Part shown: positions 1 through 10,416 of the stretch, one piece after another | Layout: every line of letters starts with the position of its first letter | Position numbering within the stretch: the stretch's first letter is position 1 | Virus genome (UHGV): UHGV-0174159 | Origin: a virus | Length of the DNA stretch: 10,805 nucleotides | Direction: 5' to 3' (one strand) | Notes under the pieces: model-generated | The model's database searches: none | What the model was told of the DNA's origin: nothing | The model's input: the letters and a program-made list of their open reading frames with translations, nothing else | Translations under genes and position numbers: made by a program

Positions 1-183
1 AAACCAATGATTAGTCTGGTTGATGGCGAAGAAATCAAAGGTACTGTTTACCTAGGTGATGGGTGGTCTGCTAAAAAGGATGGTGCTACAATCGTTATCT
101 CTCCTGCTGAAGAAACTGCGTTGTTTAAAGCTAAACACATTTCTGCAGCACATCTCAAGATTATTGCTAAAAATCTTTTGTAA
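1..183 (+). CDS. 3' end of an upstream gene (C-terminal 60 codons), hypothetical protein
   Basis: Frame 1 is open from base 1 to TAA at 181-183 (…DGEEIKGTVYLGDGWSAKKDGATIVISPAEETALFKAKHISAAHLKIIAKNLL*); same strand and codon style as the downstream genes. No start in window. Confidence 0.5.
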   Translation, partial: KPMISLVDGEEIKGTVYLGDGWSAKKDGATIVISPAEETALFKAKHISAAHLKIIAKNLL

Positions 184-202
184 TAAACAATTTCACAAAG
201 TT

Positions 203-248
203 GTTTACATAGGGTTTTAGTTGTGATACTATTACCCTATCAACTACT
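203..248 (+). promoter_or_regulatory. T4 early-type promoter cassette, copy 1 (GTTTAC-N18-TACTAT-N6-ATCAACTACT)
   Basis: GTTTAC at 203-208, TACTAT at 227-232, conserved ATCAACTACT at 239-248; inverted repeat ATAGGGT (209-215) / ACCCTAT (234-240) brackets the -10. SD GAGGAG at 249-254 and ATG at 261 follow. Confidence 0.6.
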
Positions 249-260
249 GAGGAGAATAAA

Positions 261-1725: not shown

Positions 1726-1798
1726 TGGGAATTAGCCAAGTTGGTAAGGCACTGGATTTTGATTCCAGGATGCAAAGGTTCGAGTCCTTTATTCCCAG
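1726..1798 (+). tRNA. tRNA-Gln (anticodon TTG), CCA not encoded
   Basis: Acceptor TGGGAAT/ATTCCCA; anticodon stem CTGGA/TCCAG with loop TTTTGAT; T-arm AAAGG-TTCGAGT-CCTTT. Folded by hand. Confidence 0.85.
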
Positions 1799-1799
1799 C

Positions 1800-1886
1800 G
1801 CGAGAATGGTCAAATTGGTAAAGGCACAGCACTTAAAATGCTGCGGAATGATTTCCTTGTGGGTTCGAGTCCCACTTCTCGCACCA
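1800..1886 (+). tRNA. tRNA-Leu (anticodon TAA), type II with long variable arm, CCA encoded
   Basis: Acceptor GCGAGAA/TTCTCGC; anticodon loop CTTAAAA between CAGCA/TGCTG; T-arm GTGGG-TTCGAGT-CCCAC; 3' ACCA. Confidence 0.85.
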
Positions 1887-1891
1887 AATTT

Positions 1892-1965
<74 letters not shown>

Positions 1966-1975
1966 ATTTAATTTA

Positions 1976-2049
1976 CTCCGTGTAGCTCAGTTTAGTAGAG
2001 CGTCTGCTTTGGGAGCAGAATGTCGTAGGTTCAAATCCTGCCACGGAGA
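1976..2049 (+). tRNA. tRNA-Pro (anticodon TGG), CCA not encoded
   Basis: Acceptor CTCCGTG/CACGGAG; anticodon stem TCTGC/GCAGA with loop TTTGGGA; T-loop TTCAAAT. Confidence 0.8.
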
Positions 2050-2051
2050 CT

Positions 2052-2141
2052 GGAGGCGTGGCAGAGTGGTTTAATGCACCGGTCTTGAAAACCGGCAGTC
2101 GCTCCGGCGACTCATAGGTTCAAATCCTATCGCCTCCGCCA
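2052..2141 (+). tRNA. tRNA-Ser (anticodon TGA), type II, CCA encoded
   Basis: Acceptor GGAGGCG/CGCCTCC; anticodon stem CCGGT/ACCGG with loop CTTGAAA; long variable arm; T-loop TTCAAAT; 3' GCCA. Confidence 0.85.
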
Positions 2142-2146
2142 GGTTT

Positions 2147-2222
2147 GCTGATTTAGCTCAGTAGGTAGAGCAACTCACTTGTAATGAGAAGGTCGGCGGT
2201 TCGATTCCGTCAATCAGCACCA
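2147..2222 (+). tRNA. tRNA-Thr (anticodon TGT)
   Basis: Acceptor GCTGATT/AATCAGC; anticodon loop CTTGTAA; T-loop TTCGATT; 3' ACCA. Confidence 0.8.
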
Positions 2223-2223
2223 A

Positions 2224-2298
2224 GGCCCTGTAGCTGGAAGGTTCAAGCAAGCGACTCATAATCGCCAGATGGTGGTTCAATTCCACCCAGGGCCACCA
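2224..2298 (+). tRNA. tRNA with anticodon CAT (Ile2/lysidine type or Met; Ile in T4)
   Basis: Acceptor GGCCCTG/CAGGGCC; anticodon loop CTCATAA; T-loop TTCAATT; 3' ACCA. Identity beyond the anticodon is inferred from the T4 tRNA set. Confidence 0.75.
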
Positions 2299-2307
2299 AA
2301 TTAATTA

Positions 2308-2394
2308 GGGGAGTTATCCCGTAGAGGTAGCGGTGTGGACTGTAAATCCATTGTCATTGCGACTCGGGTGGTTCGACTCTATCACTCCCCACCA
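2308..2394 (+). tRNA. tRNA-Tyr (anticodon GTA), type II with long variable arm
   Basis: Perfect 7-bp acceptor GGGGAGT/ACTCCCC; anticodon stem GTGGA/TCCAT (one G-U) with loop CTGTAAA; 15-nt variable arm; T-arm GGTGG-TTCGACT-CTATC (two G-U pairs); 3' ACCA. The D-arm pairing is imperfect. Confidence 0.6.
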
Positions 2395-2398
2395 ATTT

Positions 2399-2473
2399 GG
2401 ATGTGTAGCTCAATGGCAGAGCGATCGCCTGTTAAGCGATTGGTTATAGGTTCGAATCCTATCACGTCCGCCA
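2399..2473 (+). tRNA. tRNA-Asn (anticodon GTT)
   Basis: Acceptor GGATGTG/CACGTCC (one G-U); D-stem GCTC/GAGC; anticodon stem ATCGC/GCGAT with loop CTGTTAA; T-arm ATAGG-TTCGAAT-CCTAT; 3' GCCA. Confidence 0.8.
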
Positions 2474-2477
2474 AATC

Positions 2478-2553
2478 CGAGGCATAGCTCAGAAGGAAGA
2501 GCAAGGACCTTCTAAGTCCTGGGTCGTAGGTTCGATCCCTACTGCCTCGACCA
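2478..2553 (+). tRNA. tRNA-Arg (anticodon TCT)
   Basis: Acceptor CGAGGCA/TGCCTCG; D-stem GCTC/GAGC; anticodon stem AGGAC/GTCCT with loop CTTCTAA; T-arm GTAGG-TTCGATC-CCTAC; 3' ACCA. Confidence 0.8.
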
Positions 2554-2868
2554 GACAAGAAGCCGGGTCGCTACCGGCAAGTCGTCGGACTGATGTTCCC
2601 TGTTTAAGGACTGGCATTAATAAATCTTTATGTTTTGTTAATGTCCCCTTATATCACAACAGAAACGGCGCACCGAATTATCGATTCGAGGAAATATCTT
2701 TGCCGTAAGCCGAGTAGCGTTTTTGACGGAACGTTCGGATATGGTCGAGATATGGCCTTTTAAAAATATTGAGTAGCGTCAACTGCTTAATAACCGGGTT
2801 CGAATCCCGGCGTTTCGTACAAACACTTGCCTTAGCAGGTGGAACCCCGACAAGGTTGCCGCAAGGCT
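2554..2868 (+). ncRNA. candidate small stable RNA(s) with tRNA-like elements, positionally analogous to the T4 species 1/2 RNAs
   Basis: No credible ORF; sits between tRNA-Arg and a terminator. Contains a canonical T-arm-like motif CCGGG-TTCGAAT-CCCGG (2794-2810), a GCCGG/CCGGC hairpin near 2563-2579, and direct repeats GAGTAGCGT (2713-2721 and 2771-2779) and GATATGG (2738-2744 and 2748-2754). Exact ends unknown. Confidence 0.3.
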
Positions 2869-2869
2869 T

Positions 2870-2897
2870 AGCCCCAGCCGAAAGGTTGGGGCTTTTT
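2870..2897 (+). terminator. rho-independent terminator (10-bp stem, GAAA tetraloop, T5)
   Basis: AGCCCCAGCC-GAAA-GGTTGGGGCT followed by TTTTT. Confidence 0.8.
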
Positions 2898-2899
2898 AG

Positions 2900-2907
2900 T
2901 ATAAATA
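2900..2907 (+). promoter_or_regulatory. T4 late-promoter motif TATAAATA upstream of the 2944 internal-protein gene
   Basis: Exact TATAAATA 36 nt upstream of the ATG; prohead internal proteins are expected to be late-expressed. Confidence 0.55.
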
Positions 2908-2943
2908 AGTATATTAAAACCACGAATTAAAACAGGAAATAAG

Positions 2944-3417
2944 ATGAAATCATATGCTCAATTTTTAAATGAAGCGGTGTTAAATGAAGCATCTAGCACC
3001 GAAATTCAAGCTGTTGCAAAAGCTGCCATTGCCGCGGGTAAATATTCCTATAAAGATGCTTCCGATGAATCACGATTCCAATTTGCTCGCGACATGAAAG
3101 CAGAAGGATTTACGGGGAATGCTGTTAGTATGGCCTGGAAAAGTTTAGTTGCTACTGGCGCTGCTTTTGCAAAGGCTTCGGGTAAACCTGCTCCTAAAGC
3201 AGATCCTAAAGTCGCACAAGAGAAAAATATTGTTAAAGGAATTATCTCCAAATATGAAGCTATCCTTAAAGAGCTTTTAGTAATCAAAACTGAAGGCCAG
3301 AAACTTGCGCGAGCTCATAGTTTCAAAGATAATCCACATGTTCACTCTCTTGAGTATGTTGAAGACATCCAAAAAATTATCAAAGACCGCATTTGGTCTG
3401 CTAAACAAATCAAATAA
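2944..3417 (+). CDS. internal-protein-like capsid protein with N-terminal capsid-targeting sequence (157 aa)
   Basis: N-terminus MKSYAQFLNE|AVLNE|A resembles the T4 internal-protein CTS (MKTYQEFIAE) with L-x-E prohead-protease motifs; SD AGGA upstream; bracketed by two near-identical terminators. Confidence 0.7.
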   Translation: MKSYAQFLNEAVLNEASSTEIQAVAKAAIAAGKYSYKDASDESRFQFARDMKAEGFTGNAVSMAWKSLVATGAAFAKASGKPAPKADPKVAQEKNIVKGIISKYEAILKELLVIKTEGQKLARAHSFKDNPHVHSLEYVEDIQKIIKDRIWSAKQIK

Positions 3418-3424
3418 CATTCTT

Positions 3425-3452
3425 AGCCCTAGCCGAAAGGTTGGGGCTTTTT
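3425..3452 (+). terminator. rho-independent terminator, near-identical copy of the 2870-2897 terminator
   Basis: AGCCCTAGCC-GAAA-GGTTGGGGCT followed by TTTTT, immediately after the stop at 3415-3417. Confidence 0.8.
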
Positions 3453-3585
3453 GGTATCTAGGCCTTTCCAGGCCTCTCTAGACATCATTTAGTTTCTACC
3501 CTTTATAATATATTATCCTACCTTTTAATTTCCTCTCCCTGCCCTAGAATTCCCCAAAACTTTTTAAAAATTTTTTCACAAAACT

Positions 3586-3631
3586 GTTTACATCCCTGTT
3601 CTTCCGTGGTACTATATCAATATCAACTACT
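3586..3631 (+). promoter_or_regulatory. T4 early-type promoter cassette, copy 2
   Basis: GTTTAC 3586-3591, TACTAT 3610-3615 (18-nt spacer), ATCAACTACT 3622-3631; same geometry as copies 1 and 3. Confidence 0.6.
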
Positions 3632-3658
3632 GATACAGAAAACAACTTGGAGAACGAA

Positions 3659-3922
3659 ATGGATAATTACGGCGAACTGTTCAACTTCTTTATGAAATGT
3701 GTTTCAGAAGATTTCGGTCGTACAGTGAATGATATTAAAGTTATCGGTCCTGATCATCCGATGTTTGAAACCTATGCAGTAATGGGTAATGAAGACGGTC
3801 AGTGGTATACTGTAAAGGTTGTGATTAATATGTTCACGGCAGAAGGTTATGTTAAACTGTCTTCTAAAGTTTACCATGATAACGACGAAATCGCAGAAGA
3901 ATATTTCAATAATATGAAATAA
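3659..3922 (+). CDS. hypothetical protein (87 aa)
   Basis: ORF-track ORF 3647-3922 starts at a TTG; ATG at 3659 lies 6 nt after GGAG (3649-3652). Confidence 0.6.
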   Translation: MDNYGELFNFFMKCVSEDFGRTVNDIKVIGPDHPMFETYAVMGNEDGQWYTVKVVINMFTAEGYVKLSSKVYHDNDEIAEEYFNNMK

Positions 3923-5018: not shown

Positions 5019-5627
5019 ATGAAAATGCAAAGTGATTTCAATTCAATGTTTGAAGAATTCCAAAGACAAGTTGATGTTCCAGACCAATTACTAAATGCTC
5101 TTAAACGTATGGCAGAAGGACGTAATTATTATTGGGGTTCTTCATATGAAACTGATGAAAGTCTTTCTGGAAGATTTTCCAGAGGTAAAAAGTCTTTAAT
5201 ACGTCCTGGAATACTTATTAACAGTATTGAATCAATTCATTTATTAACATGCGATTTTGACGTTGAATTTACTGATTTCGTTTCCCCTGAATGGACAGTA
5301 TGTTATTTAAACGACGATTATGATTATCTCGGTGTTTATAGTTTAAGTGACGCATGGTTTAAACGTAATTTACAAAAGTCAAATTTATTTTATATTGATA
5401 CTACTGTAAAATTTCAGGGCAAGAAATATTTCTTTACTCTTATAGTTGATTCTGAAACGAAGCATGAAAATAAACGTATTCTTAGTAAAAAGAATATCTT
5501 AACTATTGTTGATGATCTTTTTGATAAATTCGTGGAAAATCCAAATTTTGAAAGCGATTTATTATTAGAAAAATTTGTTAAGGAATGTAGAGAATATGTC
5601 AAAACCATCACTATACCTTCCAAGTAA
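5019..5627 (+). CDS. hypothetical soluble protein (202 aa) with C-terminal FVKECR motif shared with the next three genes
   Basis: ORF track; GGAG at 5004-5007; a second in-frame ATG at 5025 is an alternative start. Confidence 0.65.
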   Translation: MKMQSDFNSMFEEFQRQVDVPDQLLNALKRMAEGRNYYWGSSYETDESLSGRFSRGKKSLIRPGILINSIESIHLLTCDFDVEFTDFVSPEWTVCYLNDDYDYLGVYSLSDAWFKRNLQKSNLFYIDTTVKFQGKKYFFTLIVDSETKHENKRILSKKNILTIVDDLFDKFVENPNFESDLLLEKFVKECREYVKTITIPSK

Positions 5628-5988
5628 ACCTTTGAAGTATGAATCAAAGCACCAGATAATTTCTACCGATGTATTAATAGGTCCTGTAATAGCTATATCA
5701 TTTGTAATTCTATTGATTATTGGAGGTGTTTTAGATGTTATGACTGATATTGATTCTGGCGAAATACTTGTGTTAATGCTAATTCTTCCATTGGTAGTTC
5801 CACTTTTATTAGTACCGGTAAATTGGGTAGGATACTGGTATCAAGGAAGACATTATCGTAAACGTGTACGTGAATGGAAAGCTCAGTGTAAAAAGATTAA
5901 AAAGGAACACCAGCTTAAATTAGATATGCATGAATTTAACGAAATTATGAAATTTGTTAAGGAATCACGATGCAAAAGCCAAAACTAA
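5596..5988 (+). CDS. small two-TM membrane protein, paralog A (130 aa)
   Basis: ORF-track ORF 5575-5988 starts at a TTG; first ATG at 5596 after AAGGA (5580-5584). Two hydrophobic segments, then a basic tail ending KFVKESRCK. Start uncertain. Confidence 0.55.
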   Translation: MSKPSLYLPSKPLKYESKHQIISTDVLIGPVIAISFVILLIIGGVLDVMTDIDSGEILVLMLILPLVVPLLLVPVNWVGYWYQGRHYRKRVREWKAQCKKIKKEHQLKLDMHEFNEIMKFVKESRCKSQN

Positions 5989-6344
5989 ATAAAGTCAAAT
6001 ATTCTTTTTCTGAGTCATTTTTAATTTTTGCTGTGGCGTTGGCTGCAGCTCTTGCTGGTAGTCTTATTGGATTAATGATTGACTGTATTATTTTAAACAT
6101 CCGCAGTAATGTCAGCGGTATAGTAGATATAATAGAAGTTTGGAGTGAACTTCATTATACTATAGCGATTTCATTATTTTCATTCTTTGGTATTATTTTA
6201 TATTTTCATTATGATAATTTTAAAATAAATTGGCAAAGAAAAAAGGATTACAAAATACAATTAAAAGAATATAATAACTACATGTCTTATATTGAAAATG
6301 AATCAATGAAAGAATTCGTGAATGATTGTAGGAAAATCAAATGA
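5970..6344 (+). CDS. small two-TM membrane protein, paralog B (124 aa)
   Basis: ATG 7 nt after AAGGA; N-terminus MQKPKLNKVKYSFSES resembles paralog A (MSKPSLYLPSKPLKYESK); two hydrophobic segments; tail ends EFVNDCRKIK. Confidence 0.65.
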   Translation: MQKPKLNKVKYSFSESFLIFAVALAAALAGSLIGLMIDCIILNIRSNVSGIVDIIEVWSELHYTIAISLFSFFGIILYFHYDNFKINWQRKKDYKIQLKEYNNYMSYIENESMKEFVNDCRKIK

Positions 6345-6829
6345 TTTTAAAAACTCGCTGGTATGATTTAGATGATGGGGATGATGGCATTTCAGTTGAT
6401 AGAGTTGACTGGAATGGCTGTTCCGAAGATATGAAAAATTTGCTGATTAGGGAGTTTAGAATGGGATATCAACCAGTTAAGCCATCTACTGCAACAGATG
6501 ATAAATTCGTGTGTATTCATAATGGTCGCGCTAAATTAACGAACACTGATTGGTTCACAGATAAGATTATGATTCTGTGGTATATTATTAGTTTTCCTGT
6601 GACATCATTTGTATTTTGCTTCTTTGGAGAAAGTCCAGTAGACAGAACGGGAGATTGGATTATTTTAACCATACTTGTTAATATTTTTACAGCAGCAATA
6701 TTATCTGGGATATGGTACACGTTCATTGAAATGCCATGGCGTTTACGTAGGCAGCAAAAGATTTTTGATGAAAAGAAATATACTCAAAATTTAAATAATT
6801 TTATCACCGAATGCAGGAAATTAAAATGA
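6341..6829 (+). CDS. membrane protein, paralog C with N-terminal extension (162 aa)
   Basis: ATGA start/stop overlap with paralog B; two hydrophobic segments in the C-terminal half; tail ends NFITECRKLK. Confidence 0.65.
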   Translation: MILKTRWYDLDDGDDGISVDRVDWNGCSEDMKNLLIREFRMGYQPVKPSTATDDKFVCIHNGRAKLTNTDWFTDKIMILWYIISFPVTSFVFCFFGESPVDRTGDWIILTILVNIFTAAILSGIWYTFIEMPWRLRRQQKIFDEKKYTQNLNNFITECRKLK

Positions 6830-7266
6830 AAACATTATCAGCTGGTATTATCTTTATGACAGAAGATAAAGATTTATTCATGGGACGGGTTACTGGTTCT
6901 CGTAAGCCTGGAATGATGGCACATCGCTGGGATATTCCAAAAGGCCGTGTAGAAAATTCTGATTTGAGCGCACTAGATGCAGCACGAAGAGAATGCTTAG
7001 AAGAGACCGGTTTTAGCAATTATAATCCAGACCTTCTAGAAGACCTAGGTGTATTTAAATATTCTAGTAATAAAGACTTACAGCTGTTTTATTATACGAT
7101 TCCAGTAGAGCATGAGATGTTTAGAAATTGCCCATGCGAGTCTTATTTTGAAAATAAAGATGGTGTTATGATTCCAGAGATGGATGCTTTTGCTCTTATT
7201 CCTCGTACTCAGTGGCAATATGTGATGGGTCCTTCACTTTACCGAATAATGAACAGCCTCTTTTAA
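6826..7266 (+). CDS. nudE: Nudix hydrolase (T4 NudE / e.1-like)
   Basis: Nudix box GRVENSDLSALDAARRECLEETGF; immediately upstream of lysozyme as in T4. ATG at 6826 (ATGA overlap, AGGA 8 nt upstream) preferred over the ORF-track ATG at 6811. Confidence 0.85.
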   Translation: MKTLSAGIIFMTEDKDLFMGRVTGSRKPGMMAHRWDIPKGRVENSDLSALDAARRECLEETGFSNYNPDLLEDLGVFKYSSNKDLQLFYYTIPVEHEMFRNCPCESYFENKDGVMIPEMDAFALIPRTQWQYVMGPSLYRIMNSLF

Positions 7267-8069
<803 letters not shown>

Positions 8070-8070
8070 T

Positions 8071-8116
8071 GTTTACTTCCTCCAAGGACTTTGATACTAT
8101 ACATTCATCAACTACT
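8071..8116 (+). promoter_or_regulatory. T4 early-type promoter cassette, copy 3, upstream of denV
   Basis: GTTTAC 8071-8076 (2 nt after the TAG stop), TACTAT 8095-8100, ATCAACTACT 8107-8116. Confidence 0.6.
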
Positions 8117-8124
8117 TGGAGGAA
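8077..8124 (+). promoter_or_regulatory. 10-bp inverted repeat able to sequester the denV SD, with the promoter -10 in its loop
   Basis: TTCCTCCAAG (8077-8086) is the exact reverse complement of CTTGGAGGAA (8115-8124), which contains the denV SD GGAGG; the 28-nt loop carries TACTAT and the predicted start region. Confidence 0.5.
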
Positions 8125-8127
8125 ATT

Positions 8128-8544
8128 ATGACTCGTATCAATTTAACACTTGTTTCTGAACTGACCGACCAACATCTTATGGCTGAGTATCGTGAATTGC
8201 CGCGTGTTTTTGGTATAGTTCGTAAACATGTGGCAAATGGTAAGCGGGTTAAAGATTTTAAAATATCTTCCGAGTTTATTTTAGGCTCTGGTCATGTTAC
8301 GTTCTTTTACGATAAGTTAGAATTTTTGCGAAAGCGTCAATCAGACATTATAACGGAATGCTTAAAACGTGGGTTTAGTATAAAAGATACTGAAGTTCCT
8401 GACATCAGCGATATTCCAGCAGAATGGAAAAATGATTATAATCCATGCAAATCAGCTATTAAATTGAGTCAACAACGACTCGATGAAAAAATTTTAATGA
8501 AGCCACACTGGTACAAGTATTACGGCAAAAATATTTACATTTAA
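8128..8544 (+). CDS. denV: endonuclease V, pyrimidine-dimer DNA glycosylase/AP lyase
   Basis: Translation [29 protein letters not shown]… closely matches T4 endonuclease V as recalled; N-terminal Thr2 and Glu23 conserved; 138 aa. ORF-track start 8116 is a TTG. Confidence 0.95.
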
Positions 8545-8553
8545 AGGAAACAT

Positions 8554-9027
8554 ATGAAAACATATCAAGAATTTATCACTGAAGCAGCTATTAATTCTCA
8601 AATTATTGCTGAATCTTTTACTGATCTTTTGAAATTTAAAAAAGGTCAAAAAATCACTGCTGTATTGGATGATGGTACAGAAGTTGAGATGGATGTACAG
8701 GGATATAATTATGCAGTAGATGGAAAACTGTATAATAAATCCCATGCTAAATTTGATTCATTTGACGACTTTGTTAATACAGTTGAAGATGAAAAAACTC
8801 GTAGATCAATTTCAACTGGTGATGCTAAGGTTCTTATGGCACACGGTCATGAACGTATTCGCGCTAAACAGAATAAAATGGGTGAAGATAATTTCGCATT
8901 AGTTGGTTATCAATCTGGTAAACAAACTTATGGCTATCAGCGTACTGCTACAATGTATAATAAAAATGGTAAAATTGCCTTTGTAAATAGTAAAGGTTCT
9001 ATTCAGTACGTTAAATCGTTCAAATAA
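8554..9027 (+). CDS. internal-protein-like capsid protein with CTS (157 aa)
   Basis: N-terminus MKTYQEFITE|AAINSQIIAE|S is almost the canonical T4 CTS MKTYQEFIAE; AAGGA 6 nt upstream. Confidence 0.75.
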   Translation: MKTYQEFITEAAINSQIIAESFTDLLKFKKGQKITAVLDDGTEVEMDVQGYNYAVDGKLYNKSHAKFDSFDDFVNTVEDEKTRRSISTGDAKVLMAHGHERIRAKQNKMGEDNFALVGYQSGKQTYGYQRTATMYNKNGKIAFVNSKGSIQYVKSFK

Positions 9028-10053: not shown

Positions 10054-10416
10054 ATGAAAGCATATCAAATTCTTGAAGGCACACATAAAGGTACTATTTA
10101 TTTTGAAGACGGTATTCAAGCACGAATTATTGTCTCTAAAACCTTTAAAGCGGACTCTTTTGTAGACCCAGAAATTTTCTATGGTTTGCATGCCCGTGAA
10201 ATTGAAATTGAGCAACAGCCTACAGTTAAAATTGAAGGTGGTCAACACCTGAACGTTAACGTTCTGCGTCGCGAAACTCTGGAAGATGCAGTTAAGCATC
10301 CGGAAAAATATCCGCAGCTGACCATCCGTGTATCCGGTTATGCAGTTCGCTTTAACTCTCTGACTCCGGAACAGCAGCGCGACGTTATCGCTCGTACCTT
10401 TACCGAGAGTTTGTAA
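10054..10416 (+). CDS. grcA: autonomous glycyl-radical cofactor protein (GrcA/YfiD-like; analogous to T4 Y06I)
   Basis: C-terminal ~56 aa [56 protein letters not shown] match E. coli GrcA as recalled, including the RVSGY radical-glycine motif (Gly95, codon 10336-10338). GAGG 6 nt upstream of the ATG. Confidence 0.9.

What the first reader, a model, noticed from the sequence alone, without database searches (positions are those of the whole stretch)
2870..3452. Internal-protein gene bracketed by two near-identical terminator hairpins
CTTAGCCCCAGCCGAAAGGTTGGGGCTTTTT (2866-2897) and CTTAGCCCTAGCCGAAAGGTTGGGGCTTTTT (3422-3452) are roughly 30-nt direct repeats with one mismatch flanking the 2944 gene, which also has its own TATAAATA late promoter. 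The unit looks like a self-contained cassette that could have been inserted or swapped by recombination between terminator copies.
Basis: seen in the sequence. Interest (0 to 1): 0.5.

Follow-up and report, generated by a model that had tools for sequence, protein, structure and literature searches.

The report
Terminator-flanked late gene cassette in T4-like phage
A small late gene of a T4-like phage, probably encoding a protein packed into the phage head, sits between two near-identical copies of one transcription terminator, and relatives show it gained, lost or swapped exactly at those copies; this is a further example of a known way these phages shuffle accessory genes.

Summary
A 36-nt direct repeat (2867-2902 and 3422-3457, 2 mismatches) contains a 10-bp GAAA-loop hairpin plus a T-run. 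It brackets one ORF (2944-3417, 157 aa) that has its own TATAAATA (2900-2907).

The window is a Tequatrovirus segment: ipI, tRNAs, rnaD/rnaC, this unit, e.8 to e, then more IP genes. Copy 1 is the rnaC terminator.

T4 has a precise empty site: one hairpin with copy 1's upstream flank and copy 2's downstream flank, 555 bp shorter, which is the repeat spacing.

All four combinations of this gene (A) and a second gene (B) occur, always joined at a hairpin and T-run:
- neither: T4
- A only: this window
- A and B: vB_VIPECOOM01
- B only: RB69

In Dhakavirus and Mosigvirus another gene (DUF7338) with the same hairpin-TATAAATA borders sits at two different loci.

A, B and the Dhakavirus occupant C belong to one unannotated family (phrog_2280). 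They carry an N-terminal leader like the T4 internal-protein capsid-targeting sequence. dN/dS is 0.08.

This is a late-promoter variant of the known PeSL/IP-locus modular shuffling. It is well supported and only moderately novel.

The parts
2681..2819 (+). rnaC (species 1 stable RNA), last gene of the tRNA/stable-RNA transcription unit that copy 1 terminates
   Evidence: 137/139 identical to T4 rnaC. rnaD maps to 2558-2674. Ten tRNAs lie at 1726-2553.
2867..2902 (+). Repeat copy 1 (T1): CTTAG, hairpin 2870-2893, T-run 2893-2897, then AGTAT. This is the rnaC terminator.
   Evidence: (D6). The same hairpin after species 1 RNA is annotated 'pot. terminator' in T4 record X03016 (H189).
2900..2907 (+). 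TATAAATA, T4-type late promoter motif, 37 nt upstream of the ATG
   Evidence: The same hairpin-TTTTT-(A)G-TATAAATA arrangement precedes the homologues in Dhakavirus and Jiaodavirus. Promoter activity is inferred.
2944..3417 (+). Gene A: 157 aa, phrog_2280, leader MKSYAQFLNE|A resembling the T4 capsid-targeting sequence. A putative encapsidated (internal) protein.
   Evidence: dN/dS is 0.08 against the Mosigvirus orthologue. No Pfam, PDB or fold match. The AF2 model is all-helical with pLDDT 71.
3422..3457 (+). Repeat copy 2 (T2): CTTAG, hairpin 3425-3448, T-run 3448-3452, then GGTAT. Terminator of the late transcript, starting 8 nt after the stop codon.
3458..3560 (+). Conserved pyrimidine-rich spacer that follows the single hairpin in T4 and hairpin T3 in RB69 and VIPECOOM01. 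It is the right-hand flank of the cassette site.
3561..3633 (+). Early-promoter block for e.8 (TTTACA 3587-3592, TACTAT 3610-3615). About 80% identical to 178-250.
   Evidence: (D3, D10).
3659..3922 (+). e.8, first conserved gene to the right of the cassette site
   Evidence: 254/264 identical to T4 e.8; phrog_2678.

Best explanation
The unit is a self-contained late-gene cassette, ordered as follows: terminator T1, late promoter, gene A, terminator T2. It sits in the rnaC-e.8 intergenic region of a Tequatrovirus.

Expression (inferred). T1 ends the early/middle tRNA-rnaD-rnaC transcripts. TATAAATA then drives late transcription of gene A. T2 stops that transcript before the early promoter of e.8. 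Expression is therefore insulated on both sides.

Gene product (inferred). Gene A probably encodes a protein that its N-terminal leader carries into the prohead. There the prohead protease would clip it after an LxE site, and it would be injected with the DNA, as T4 Ip1-3 are.

Gain and loss. T1 and T2 form a 31-36-nt direct repeat 555 bp apart. The phage recombination/replication machinery can cross over or slip between them. Excision leaves one hairpin, which is the T4 state. Integration of a circle carrying one hairpin recreates a flanked cassette. Crossing over at a hairpin between co-infecting phages swaps or stacks cassettes.

Shown: the anatomy, the precise empty site, the four A/B combinations, and the same hairpin-bordered DUF7338 cassette at two loci.

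Inferred: promoter and terminator activity, encapsidation, and the molecular route of recombination.
For: - Repeat and hairpins.
- Genomic context.
- Empty site in T4. Its sequence reads ...GTTGCCGCAACGGTTAGCCCCGACCGAAAGGTTGGGGCTTTTTGGTATCTAAGCC... This is the copy-1 left flank, one hairpin and the copy-2 right flank. The rnaC-e.8 distance is 284 bp in T4 and 839 bp in the window, a difference of 555.
- A 151-nt artificial 'empty' query matched in one piece in 8 of 60 evenly sampled records. It matched in two pieces about 706-710 bp apart in 20 and 694 bp apart in one more.
- Counts in the phage collection: rnaC plus hairpin 736 records; gene A 468 at 80% coverage or more; gene B 165; A-to-B junction 128.
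- All four A/B states exist. That requires exchange at T2 or repeated gain and loss.
- Junction sequences line up on GGGGCTTTTT in every configuration.
- Dhakavirus NC-G differs from dhaeg by one extra unit, made of a leader, the DUF7338 gene and a hairpin-TATAAATA, lying between two hairpin-TATAAATA copies.
- The same gene (74% aa identity) lies between two identical hairpins just after rI in Mosigvirus LF82-35.
- A, B and C are all phrog_2280 with MK(S/T)Y..FL.E leaders. dN/dS is 0.08.
- T4 makes deletions and amplifications in the laboratory at 6-10-bp microhomologies (PMC9391042).
- Recombination between flanking regulatory stem-loop cassettes, including excised mini-circles, was demonstrated for RB49/phi1 (PMC2839356).
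Against: - No experiment here shows termination, late transcription, packaging or recombination at these sites.
- The Jiaodavirus homologue sits at the same locus between two dissimilar hairpins. The repeat is therefore not needed for the gene to be there.
- The right end of cassette B (T3, stem CCCTATC/GATAGGG) shares only GGGCTTTTT plus the flank with the other hairpins. At least one junction rests on about 10 nt.
- Mosigvirus A and cassette B have AATAAATA rather than TATAAATA.
- No database copy of A is called an internal protein. No virion proteomics for it was found.
- Record counts include duplicate and near-identical genomes.
Confidence: 0.75

Rival explanations
1. The two terminators are alike only because strong intrinsic terminators converge on a G+C stem, a GNRA loop and a T-run. 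Under this view the gene is an old resident and its absence from T4 is an unrelated deletion. The repeat would have no role in gene flux.
For: Similar GAAA hairpins occur in unrelated IMG/VR contigs. A 251-kb contig carries four of them. The Jiaodavirus homologue has two unlike hairpins.
Against: Identity extends outside the stem: CTTAG before it, the loop, and GTAT after the T-run (36 nt, 2 mismatches). T4's single hairpin joins exactly the copy-1 and copy-2 flanks. Junctions of A, B and D cassettes all fall on the hairpin and T-run. Stem variants (CAGCC, CGACC, TAGCC, CTTCC) are shuffled between the T1 and T2 positions in different genomes.
Confidence: 0.07
2. The polymorphism is spread mainly by homing-endonuclease-driven co-conversion, for example SegB, which lies in the T4 tRNA cluster. 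Ordinary homologous recombination in the conserved flanks (rnaC on the left, spacer and e.8 on the right) would also contribute. The hairpin copies would then be passengers rather than crossover points.
For: T4 carries segB about 350 bp upstream of rnaC and has the empty site. The window has neither segB nor an empty site. The flanks are 93-99% identical among records, so whole alleles can move by flank recombination. PMC4122927 names homing endonucleases as a parallel route.
Against: This explains the spread of alleles, not their origin. It does not explain why each allele boundary coincides with a hairpin. It does not explain independent assortment of A and B, which are separated only by T2. 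It does not explain the DUF7338 cassette lying at two unlinked loci with the same borders.
Confidence: 0.13
3. The repeat arose as a one-off tandem duplication of the rnaC terminator, or by gene conversion of an older, different terminator. It is maintained because both transcription units need a strong stop. Cassette loss would then be an occasional side effect, not a shuffling mechanism.
For: The terminator, late promoter, phrog_2280 gene and terminator layout is shared by four genera, so the layout predates the repeat. Both hairpins are needed for insulation: T1 for rnaC, T2 before the e.8 promoter.
Against: Hairpin-flanked units recur with different cargo and at a second locus. T2 carries several stem and loop alleles, followed by either of two right-hand partners.
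Confidence: 0.05

Closest known systems
PeSL (promoter-early stem-loop) regulatory cassettes of T4-type phages (Arbiol et al. 2010, PMC2839356; Comeau et al. 2014, PMC4122927)
   Same: A short conserved regulatory element containing a terminator stem-loop, here GGGG...CCCC-type, flanks single accessory ORFs in hyperplastic regions. Indels between close relatives have their end points in the element. The cargo is transcriptionally insulated. The proposed route is recombination between flanking copies, with possible circles.
   Different: PeSLs are defined by a sigma-70-like early promoter joined to the stem-loop, and a middle-promoter form (PmSL) is also described. Neither paper's text contains the phrase 'late promoter'. 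Here the conserved repeat is the hairpin with its T-run, not a promoter. T1 is followed by a late promoter and T2 by no adjacent promoter. There are only 2 copies per Tequatrovirus genome rather than dozens.
Polymorphic internal-protein (IP) loci of T-even phages (Repoila et al. 1994, EMBO J 13:4181; cited in PMC12373910 and PMC4122927; the paper itself is not held)
   Same: Variable sets of small late genes share a conserved N-terminal leader of about 11 aa. They are bordered by repeated regulatory sequences thought to mediate shuffling. T4 Ip1, Ip2 and Ip3 each inhibit a different GmrSD type IV restriction enzyme.
   Different: The described IP genes lie in two loci, ipI and ipII/ipIII. This is a third site, rnaC-e.8. 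The bordering repeats reported there are about 70-bp early-promoter/inverted-repeat blocks (my recollection of the abstract). Such blocks are visible in this window at 178-250, 3561-3633 and 8068-8133. The phrog_2280 family is not annotated as IP anywhere I looked.
Deletion and amplification by recombination at short direct repeats in T4 (Srikant et al. 2022, PMC9391042)
   Same: One repeat copy remains after the event. Accessory anti-defence genes, including ipIII, are the ones lost.
   Different: Those events used 6-10-bp chance microhomologies. Here the repeat is 31-36 nt, structured and functional, and the same junction is reused in many natural genomes.

Membership tests
PeSL regulatory cassette | Stem-loop that can act as a transcription terminator | tested here: met
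   10-bp G+C stems with GAAA loop and T-run; -20.6 and -18.3 kcal/mol. Termination activity itself was not measured.
PeSL regulatory cassette | Sigma-70-like early promoter immediately downstream of the stem-loop, then SD and ATG | tested here: not met
   T1 is followed by TATAAATA, a late motif. The nearest early-type promoter after T2 is about 135 nt away, at 3587-3615.
PeSL regulatory cassette | Copies flank ORFs that are present or absent between close relatives, with junctions in the element | tested here: met
   T4 empty site; A/B four states; NC-G versus dhaeg.
PeSL regulatory cassette | Many copies dispersed through hyperplastic regions of one genome | tested here: not met
   1-3 places per genome: 694 records, 1119 places.
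PeSL regulatory cassette | Formation of excised mini-circles during infection | not testable with these tools
   Needs inverse PCR or long-read sequencing of infected cells.
T-even internal proteins (IP) | N-terminal capsid-targeting leader of about 10-11 aa (MKTYQEFIAE-like) ending in an (L/I)xE prohead-protease site | tested here: met
   MKSYAQFLNE|A, followed by a second LNE|A at residues 13-16. Aligned with T4 IpII/IpIII and the window's Ip4 and phrog_3499 IP. The cleavage rule comes from established T4 knowledge, not tested.
T-even internal proteins (IP) | Late expression | tested here: inconclusive
   The TATAAATA motif is present and positionally conserved. There are no transcript data.
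T-even internal proteins (IP) | Physically present in the virion and injected | not testable with these tools
   No proteomic report found. All names read are 'hypothetical protein'.
T-even internal proteins (IP) | Sequence homology to a named IP family | tested here: not met
   Only phrog_2280 (unknown function). No hit to the IP PHROGs 4363, 7857, 5341, 3155 or 3499. No Pfam, PDB or fold hit.
Intrinsic (rho-independent) terminator | G+C-rich hairpin directly followed by a U-run, at the end of a transcription unit | tested here: met
   T1 lies 50 nt after rnaC; T2 lies 8 nt after the stop codon.
Homing-endonuclease or transposase-borne mobile element | Element encodes its own nuclease or recombinase | tested here: not met
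   The single ORF has no nuclease or recombinase domain. There is no other credible ORF between the repeats.

The most novel reading that the evidence does not exclude
The rnaC-e.8 site is a third, unrecognised internal-protein locus of Tevenvirinae. Its occupants (phrog_2280 forms A, B and C) would be a diversifying family of encapsidated, injected anti-defence proteins, for example inhibitors of particular GmrSD-type restriction enzymes. The 'terminator plus late promoter' unit would be a distinct class of portable junction, a late counterpart of PeSL and PmSL. It would move virion-cargo genes between loci and between genera.
Probability: 0.4. Interest if true: 0.55.

Novelty: new variant of a known kind. 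Interest (0 to 1): 0.38.

Why it matters
Internal proteins are first-line counter-defence weapons of T-even phages. Ip1, Ip2 and Ip3 each disable a different GmrSD enzyme (PMC12373910).

A widespread, unannotated family with the same packaging leader, at a site where it is easily gained, lost or stacked, is an obvious candidate set for host-range determinants. That matters for phage therapy cocktails built from Tequatrovirus and Mosigvirus isolates.

The locus also gives a clean natural example of how 30-nt regulatory repeats act as swap points. Four A/B states exist and the junction is known to the nucleotide, so the proposed recombination can be measured directly. It also extends the PeSL idea from early to late transcription units.

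Tried and rejected
- Function of gene A. None of these gave a usable result:
  - Pfam: only sub-threshold noise.
  - PDB sequence search: E >= 0.4.
  - AlphaFold2 on a 9-sequence alignment: helical, pLDDT 71, pTM 0.39.
  - Foldseek against PDB: best E 1.2, so no assignment.
- Rfam found only tRNAs. It has no model matching rnaC, rnaD or the hairpins.
- IMG/VR was too poor in T-even contigs for a survey: 6 loci with the rnaC tail. Many of the 34 hairpin hits are generic GAAA terminators in unrelated contigs. I used the GenBank phage collection instead.
- A clean count of empty sites from the summary line failed. BLAST pieces 525 bp apart were joined, so filled sites also counted as full coverage. 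I used the 60-row sample instead.
- Repoila 1994 and the supplements of Comeau 2014 are not held. I could not check whether this ORF is among their ten IPs or among the PST/T4 differences.
- Strict concerted evolution of T1 and T2 was considered. It is rejected as a general rule, because stem alleles occur in mixed pairs across genomes.
- A search for virion proteomics of this family found nothing relevant.
- No tree of flanks was built to count independent loss events. The four-state argument was used instead.

Full report
**1. What the window is**

The window is a Tequatrovirus (T4-like) segment. The 1.1 kb around the finding matches 735 phage records at up to 97.6% identity. The gene order was read from ORFs, ARAGORN, PHROGs and T4/Kha5h annotation:

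| Feature | Coordinates |
|---|---|
| ipI 3' end | 7-183 |
| tRNA.4/.3/.2-like ORFs | between ipI and the tRNAs |
| ten tRNAs | 1726-2553 |
| rnaD | 2558-2674 |
| rnaC | 2681-2819 |
| the unit in question | 2867-3457 |
| e.8 | 3659-3922 |
| e.7 to e.2 | between e.8 and nudE |
| nudE | 6811-7266 |
| e | 7303-7791 |
| IP gene (phrog_3499) | 7788-8069 |
| denV | 8116-8544 |
| Ip4 | 8554-9027 |

Everything is on the + strand. This equals the T4 minus strand.

**2. The observation**

The repeat is real.
- Copies lie at 2867-2902 and 3422-3457. They are 36 nt long with 2 mismatches and are 555 nt apart (D6).
- A 28-nt pattern allowing 3 mismatches finds only these two sites, against 0 in 200 shuffles.
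- Each copy reads CTTAG, a 10-bp stem, a GAAA loop, five T, then (A/G)GTAT.
- They are the two best terminator-like sites of the window. They fold at -20.6 and -18.3 kcal/mol.
- The one stem difference (C2875 versus T3430) turns a C-G pair into U.G.

TATAAATA lies at 2900-2907 and AGGA at 2934-2937. The ORF is 2944-3417, and T2 starts 8 nt after its stop codon.

**3. The gene**

The ORF is a real gene. Against its Mosigvirus orthologue (77% aa identity), dN/dS is 0.08 over 152 codons.

It begins MKSYAQFLNEAVLNEAS. The comparable leaders are:
- T4 IpII/IpIII: MKTYQEFIAEA
- the window's Ip4: MKTYQEFITEA
- the window's 93-aa IP: [16 protein letters not shown]

By established T4 biology this leader is the capsid-targeting sequence, removed by the prohead protease after (L/I)xE. 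That fits LNE|A here.

Other evidence is thin.
- All 20 name-bearing copies read, out of the 216 members of the 90% cluster, are called 'hypothetical protein'.
- The only family hit is phrog_2280, unknown function.
- There is no Pfam, PDB or fold match.
- The AF2 model is helical: an N-terminal bundle at residues 19-78, which is the conserved part, a Pro/Lys linker, and a long C-terminal helical hairpin.

**4. Comparison of the locus**

T4 goes from rnaC to e.8 in 284 bp. It has a single hairpin carrying copy 1's left flank and copy 2's right flank. The window interval is 555 bp longer, exactly the repeat spacing.

An artificial 'empty' query of 151 nt gave, in an even sample of 60 of 736 matching records:
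- 8 one-piece full matches. These are empty sites: Sf24, Lv5cm, VEc74, RB9, RB59, two further isolates and a T4 fragment record.
- 21 two-piece matches. Twenty span 706-710 bp and one spans 694 bp. These are filled sites.

The remaining rows led to other configurations, read directly:

| Phage (genus) | Arrangement |
|---|---|
| vB_VIPECOOM01 (Tequatrovirus) | T1-A-T2-B-T3 |
| RB69 (Mosigvirus) | T1-B-T3, with B frameshifted |
| AV118, PTK, KMB38 (Mosigvirus) | T1-A'-T2, both stems CCCCTTCC |
| dhaeg (Dhakavirus) | T1'-TATAAATA-C-other hairpin |
| NC-G (Dhakavirus) | T1'-TATAAATA-D-T-TATAAATA-C |
| WFK (Mosigvirus) | unrelated ORFs |

A, B (187 aa) and C (207 aa) are all phrog_2280 and carry the same type of leader. 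D is a DUF7338 membrane-type protein.

Counts in the phage collection:
- A is present in 468 records at 80% coverage or more.
- B is present in 165 records.
- The A-to-B junction is present in 128 records.
- By subtraction, about 340 records are A only and about 37 are B only.

All four A/B states therefore exist. This requires exchange at T2 or recurrent gain and loss. In every configuration the break in similarity falls on the hairpin and T-run, GGGGCTTTTT. T2 is found with several stem and loop alleles, followed by either right-hand partner.

**5. Same borders, other cargo, other locus**

The D gene of NC-G is 74% identical to an ORF in Mosigvirus LF82-35. That ORF lies just after rI, between two identical copies of AGCCCCTTCCGAAAGGTTGGGGCTTTTT. 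The first copy is followed by TATAAATA. NC-G differs from dhaeg by exactly one such unit.

This is the strongest sign that the hairpin(+late promoter) acts as a portable junction, not just a local duplication.

In Tequatrovirus the hairpin is otherwise not dispersed. There are 694 records and 1119 places, which is 1-3 per genome. A lies 45-50 nt after T1 in all 9 records where both coordinates were listed.

**6. Polarity**

A phrog_2280 gene follows the tRNA/rnaC region behind a hairpin-TTTTT-(A)G-TATAAATA in four genera: Tequatrovirus, Mosigvirus, Dhakavirus and Klebsiella Jiaodavirus. In Jiaodavirus the two hairpins are unlike each other.

The layout is therefore old, and the T4-type empty site is most simply a deletion between T1 and T2. 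The near-identical repeat is a Tequatrovirus/Mosigvirus feature. It could stem from a past single-crossover integration or from conversion. I cannot tell which.

**7. Mechanism**

The insulated transcription design is inferred from motifs only: T1 stops the stable-RNA unit, P-late drives A, and T2 protects the e.8 early promoter.

For gene flux, the anatomy fits recombination or slippage between direct repeats.
- T4 does this in the laboratory with 6-10-bp microhomologies and thereby loses ipIII (PMC9391042).
- For RB49/phi1, recombination between flanking stem-loop/promoter cassettes and the resulting mini-circles were shown experimentally (PMC2839356).

Rival views are given separately: convergent terminators; spread by SegB co-conversion or flank recombination; a one-off duplication. 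None of them explains why all allele boundaries sit on the hairpin.

**8. Relation to what is known**

The closest concepts are the PeSL cassettes (PMC2839356, PMC4122927) and the polymorphic IP loci of Repoila et al. 1994.

This unit fails the defining PeSL feature, an early promoter fused to the stem-loop. The conserved repeat here is the terminator itself, coupled to a late promoter. Neither PeSL paper's text contains 'late promoter'.

A 2025 paper still describes T4's Ip genes as lying in two loci (PMC12373910). The rnaC-e.8 site would be a third. I could not read Repoila 1994, so prior description of this ORF cannot be excluded.

**9. Verdict**

The mechanism is plausible by strong comparative evidence but is not experimentally shown here. 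This is a new variant of a known kind of modular shuffling. It is of moderate interest, mainly as a pointer to an unannotated family of probable injected proteins and as a convenient test locus.

Noticed in passing
window 178-250, 3561-3633, 8068-8133: Three related early-promoter blocks: AT-rich, then GTTTAC, then TACTAT, then ATCAACTACTGA (D3/D10). The third overlaps an inverted repeat, 8068-8091 with 8110-8133 (I10), just before denV. They look like the PeSL / Repoila 70-bp promoter-plus-stem-loop elements.
   Followed up: partly
window 7788-9027: Gene order after e is IP (93 aa, phrog_3499), then denV, then Ip4 (DUF7412). T4 has e, ipIII, ipII, denV. The second IP locus is therefore rearranged relative to T4.
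   Followed up: partly
L043 (Mosigvirus mogra) 1530-1575: The rnaC trailer is fused to the 3' arm of T1 by a deletion of about 30 nt between two AAGGTTG repeats. The fusion creates a new shorter hairpin, CCCCGAC-AAG-GTTGGGG. This is another recombination event at the same spot.
   Followed up: no
L045 (vB_VIPECOOM01) 3121-3142: T2 here is GCCCCGACC-TTTC-GGTCGGGGC, a perfect palindrome whose loop is the complement of GAAA. The hairpin seems to have been flipped or templated from the opposite strand. Yersinia phage ZN18 (L013), with the same A-B layout, keeps GAAA.
   Followed up: no
L044 (RB69) 1682-2244: RB69ORF149c and RB69ORF148c together equal the 187-aa gene B with a frameshift after about residue 121. 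This is either a pseudogene or a sequencing error in the record.
   Followed up: partly
L001 (Kha5h) about 3345-3818; also GiZh NC_054903: Gene A is intact (98-99% aa identity) but not annotated in these GenBank records.
   Followed up: no
L020 (IMG/VR 251-kb contig) 5211-8700: Four CCCC(A/G)ACCGAAAGGTTGGGG hairpins lie at ORF boundaries. Each is followed about 45 nt later by GATTTTGTCTAGTTTTGAA. This may be an analogous repeated terminator/promoter cassette in a different large phage.
   Followed up: no
window 3453-3560: An unusually C/T-rich 110-nt spacer (TAGGCCTTTCCAGGCCTCTCTAG...CCTCTCCCTGCCCTAG) is conserved in T4, RB69 and VIPECOOM01 between the last hairpin and the e.8 promoter. Its function is unknown.
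   Followed up: no
window 1726-2553: Ten contiguous tRNA genes (adding Met, Tyr and Asn; no Ile) and no segB. T4 has eight tRNAs with segB inserted.
   Followed up: no
window 10054-10416: A 120-aa ORF whose close relatives are named autonomous glycyl radical cofactor (GrcA-like; vs.6 in RB14).
   Followed up: no
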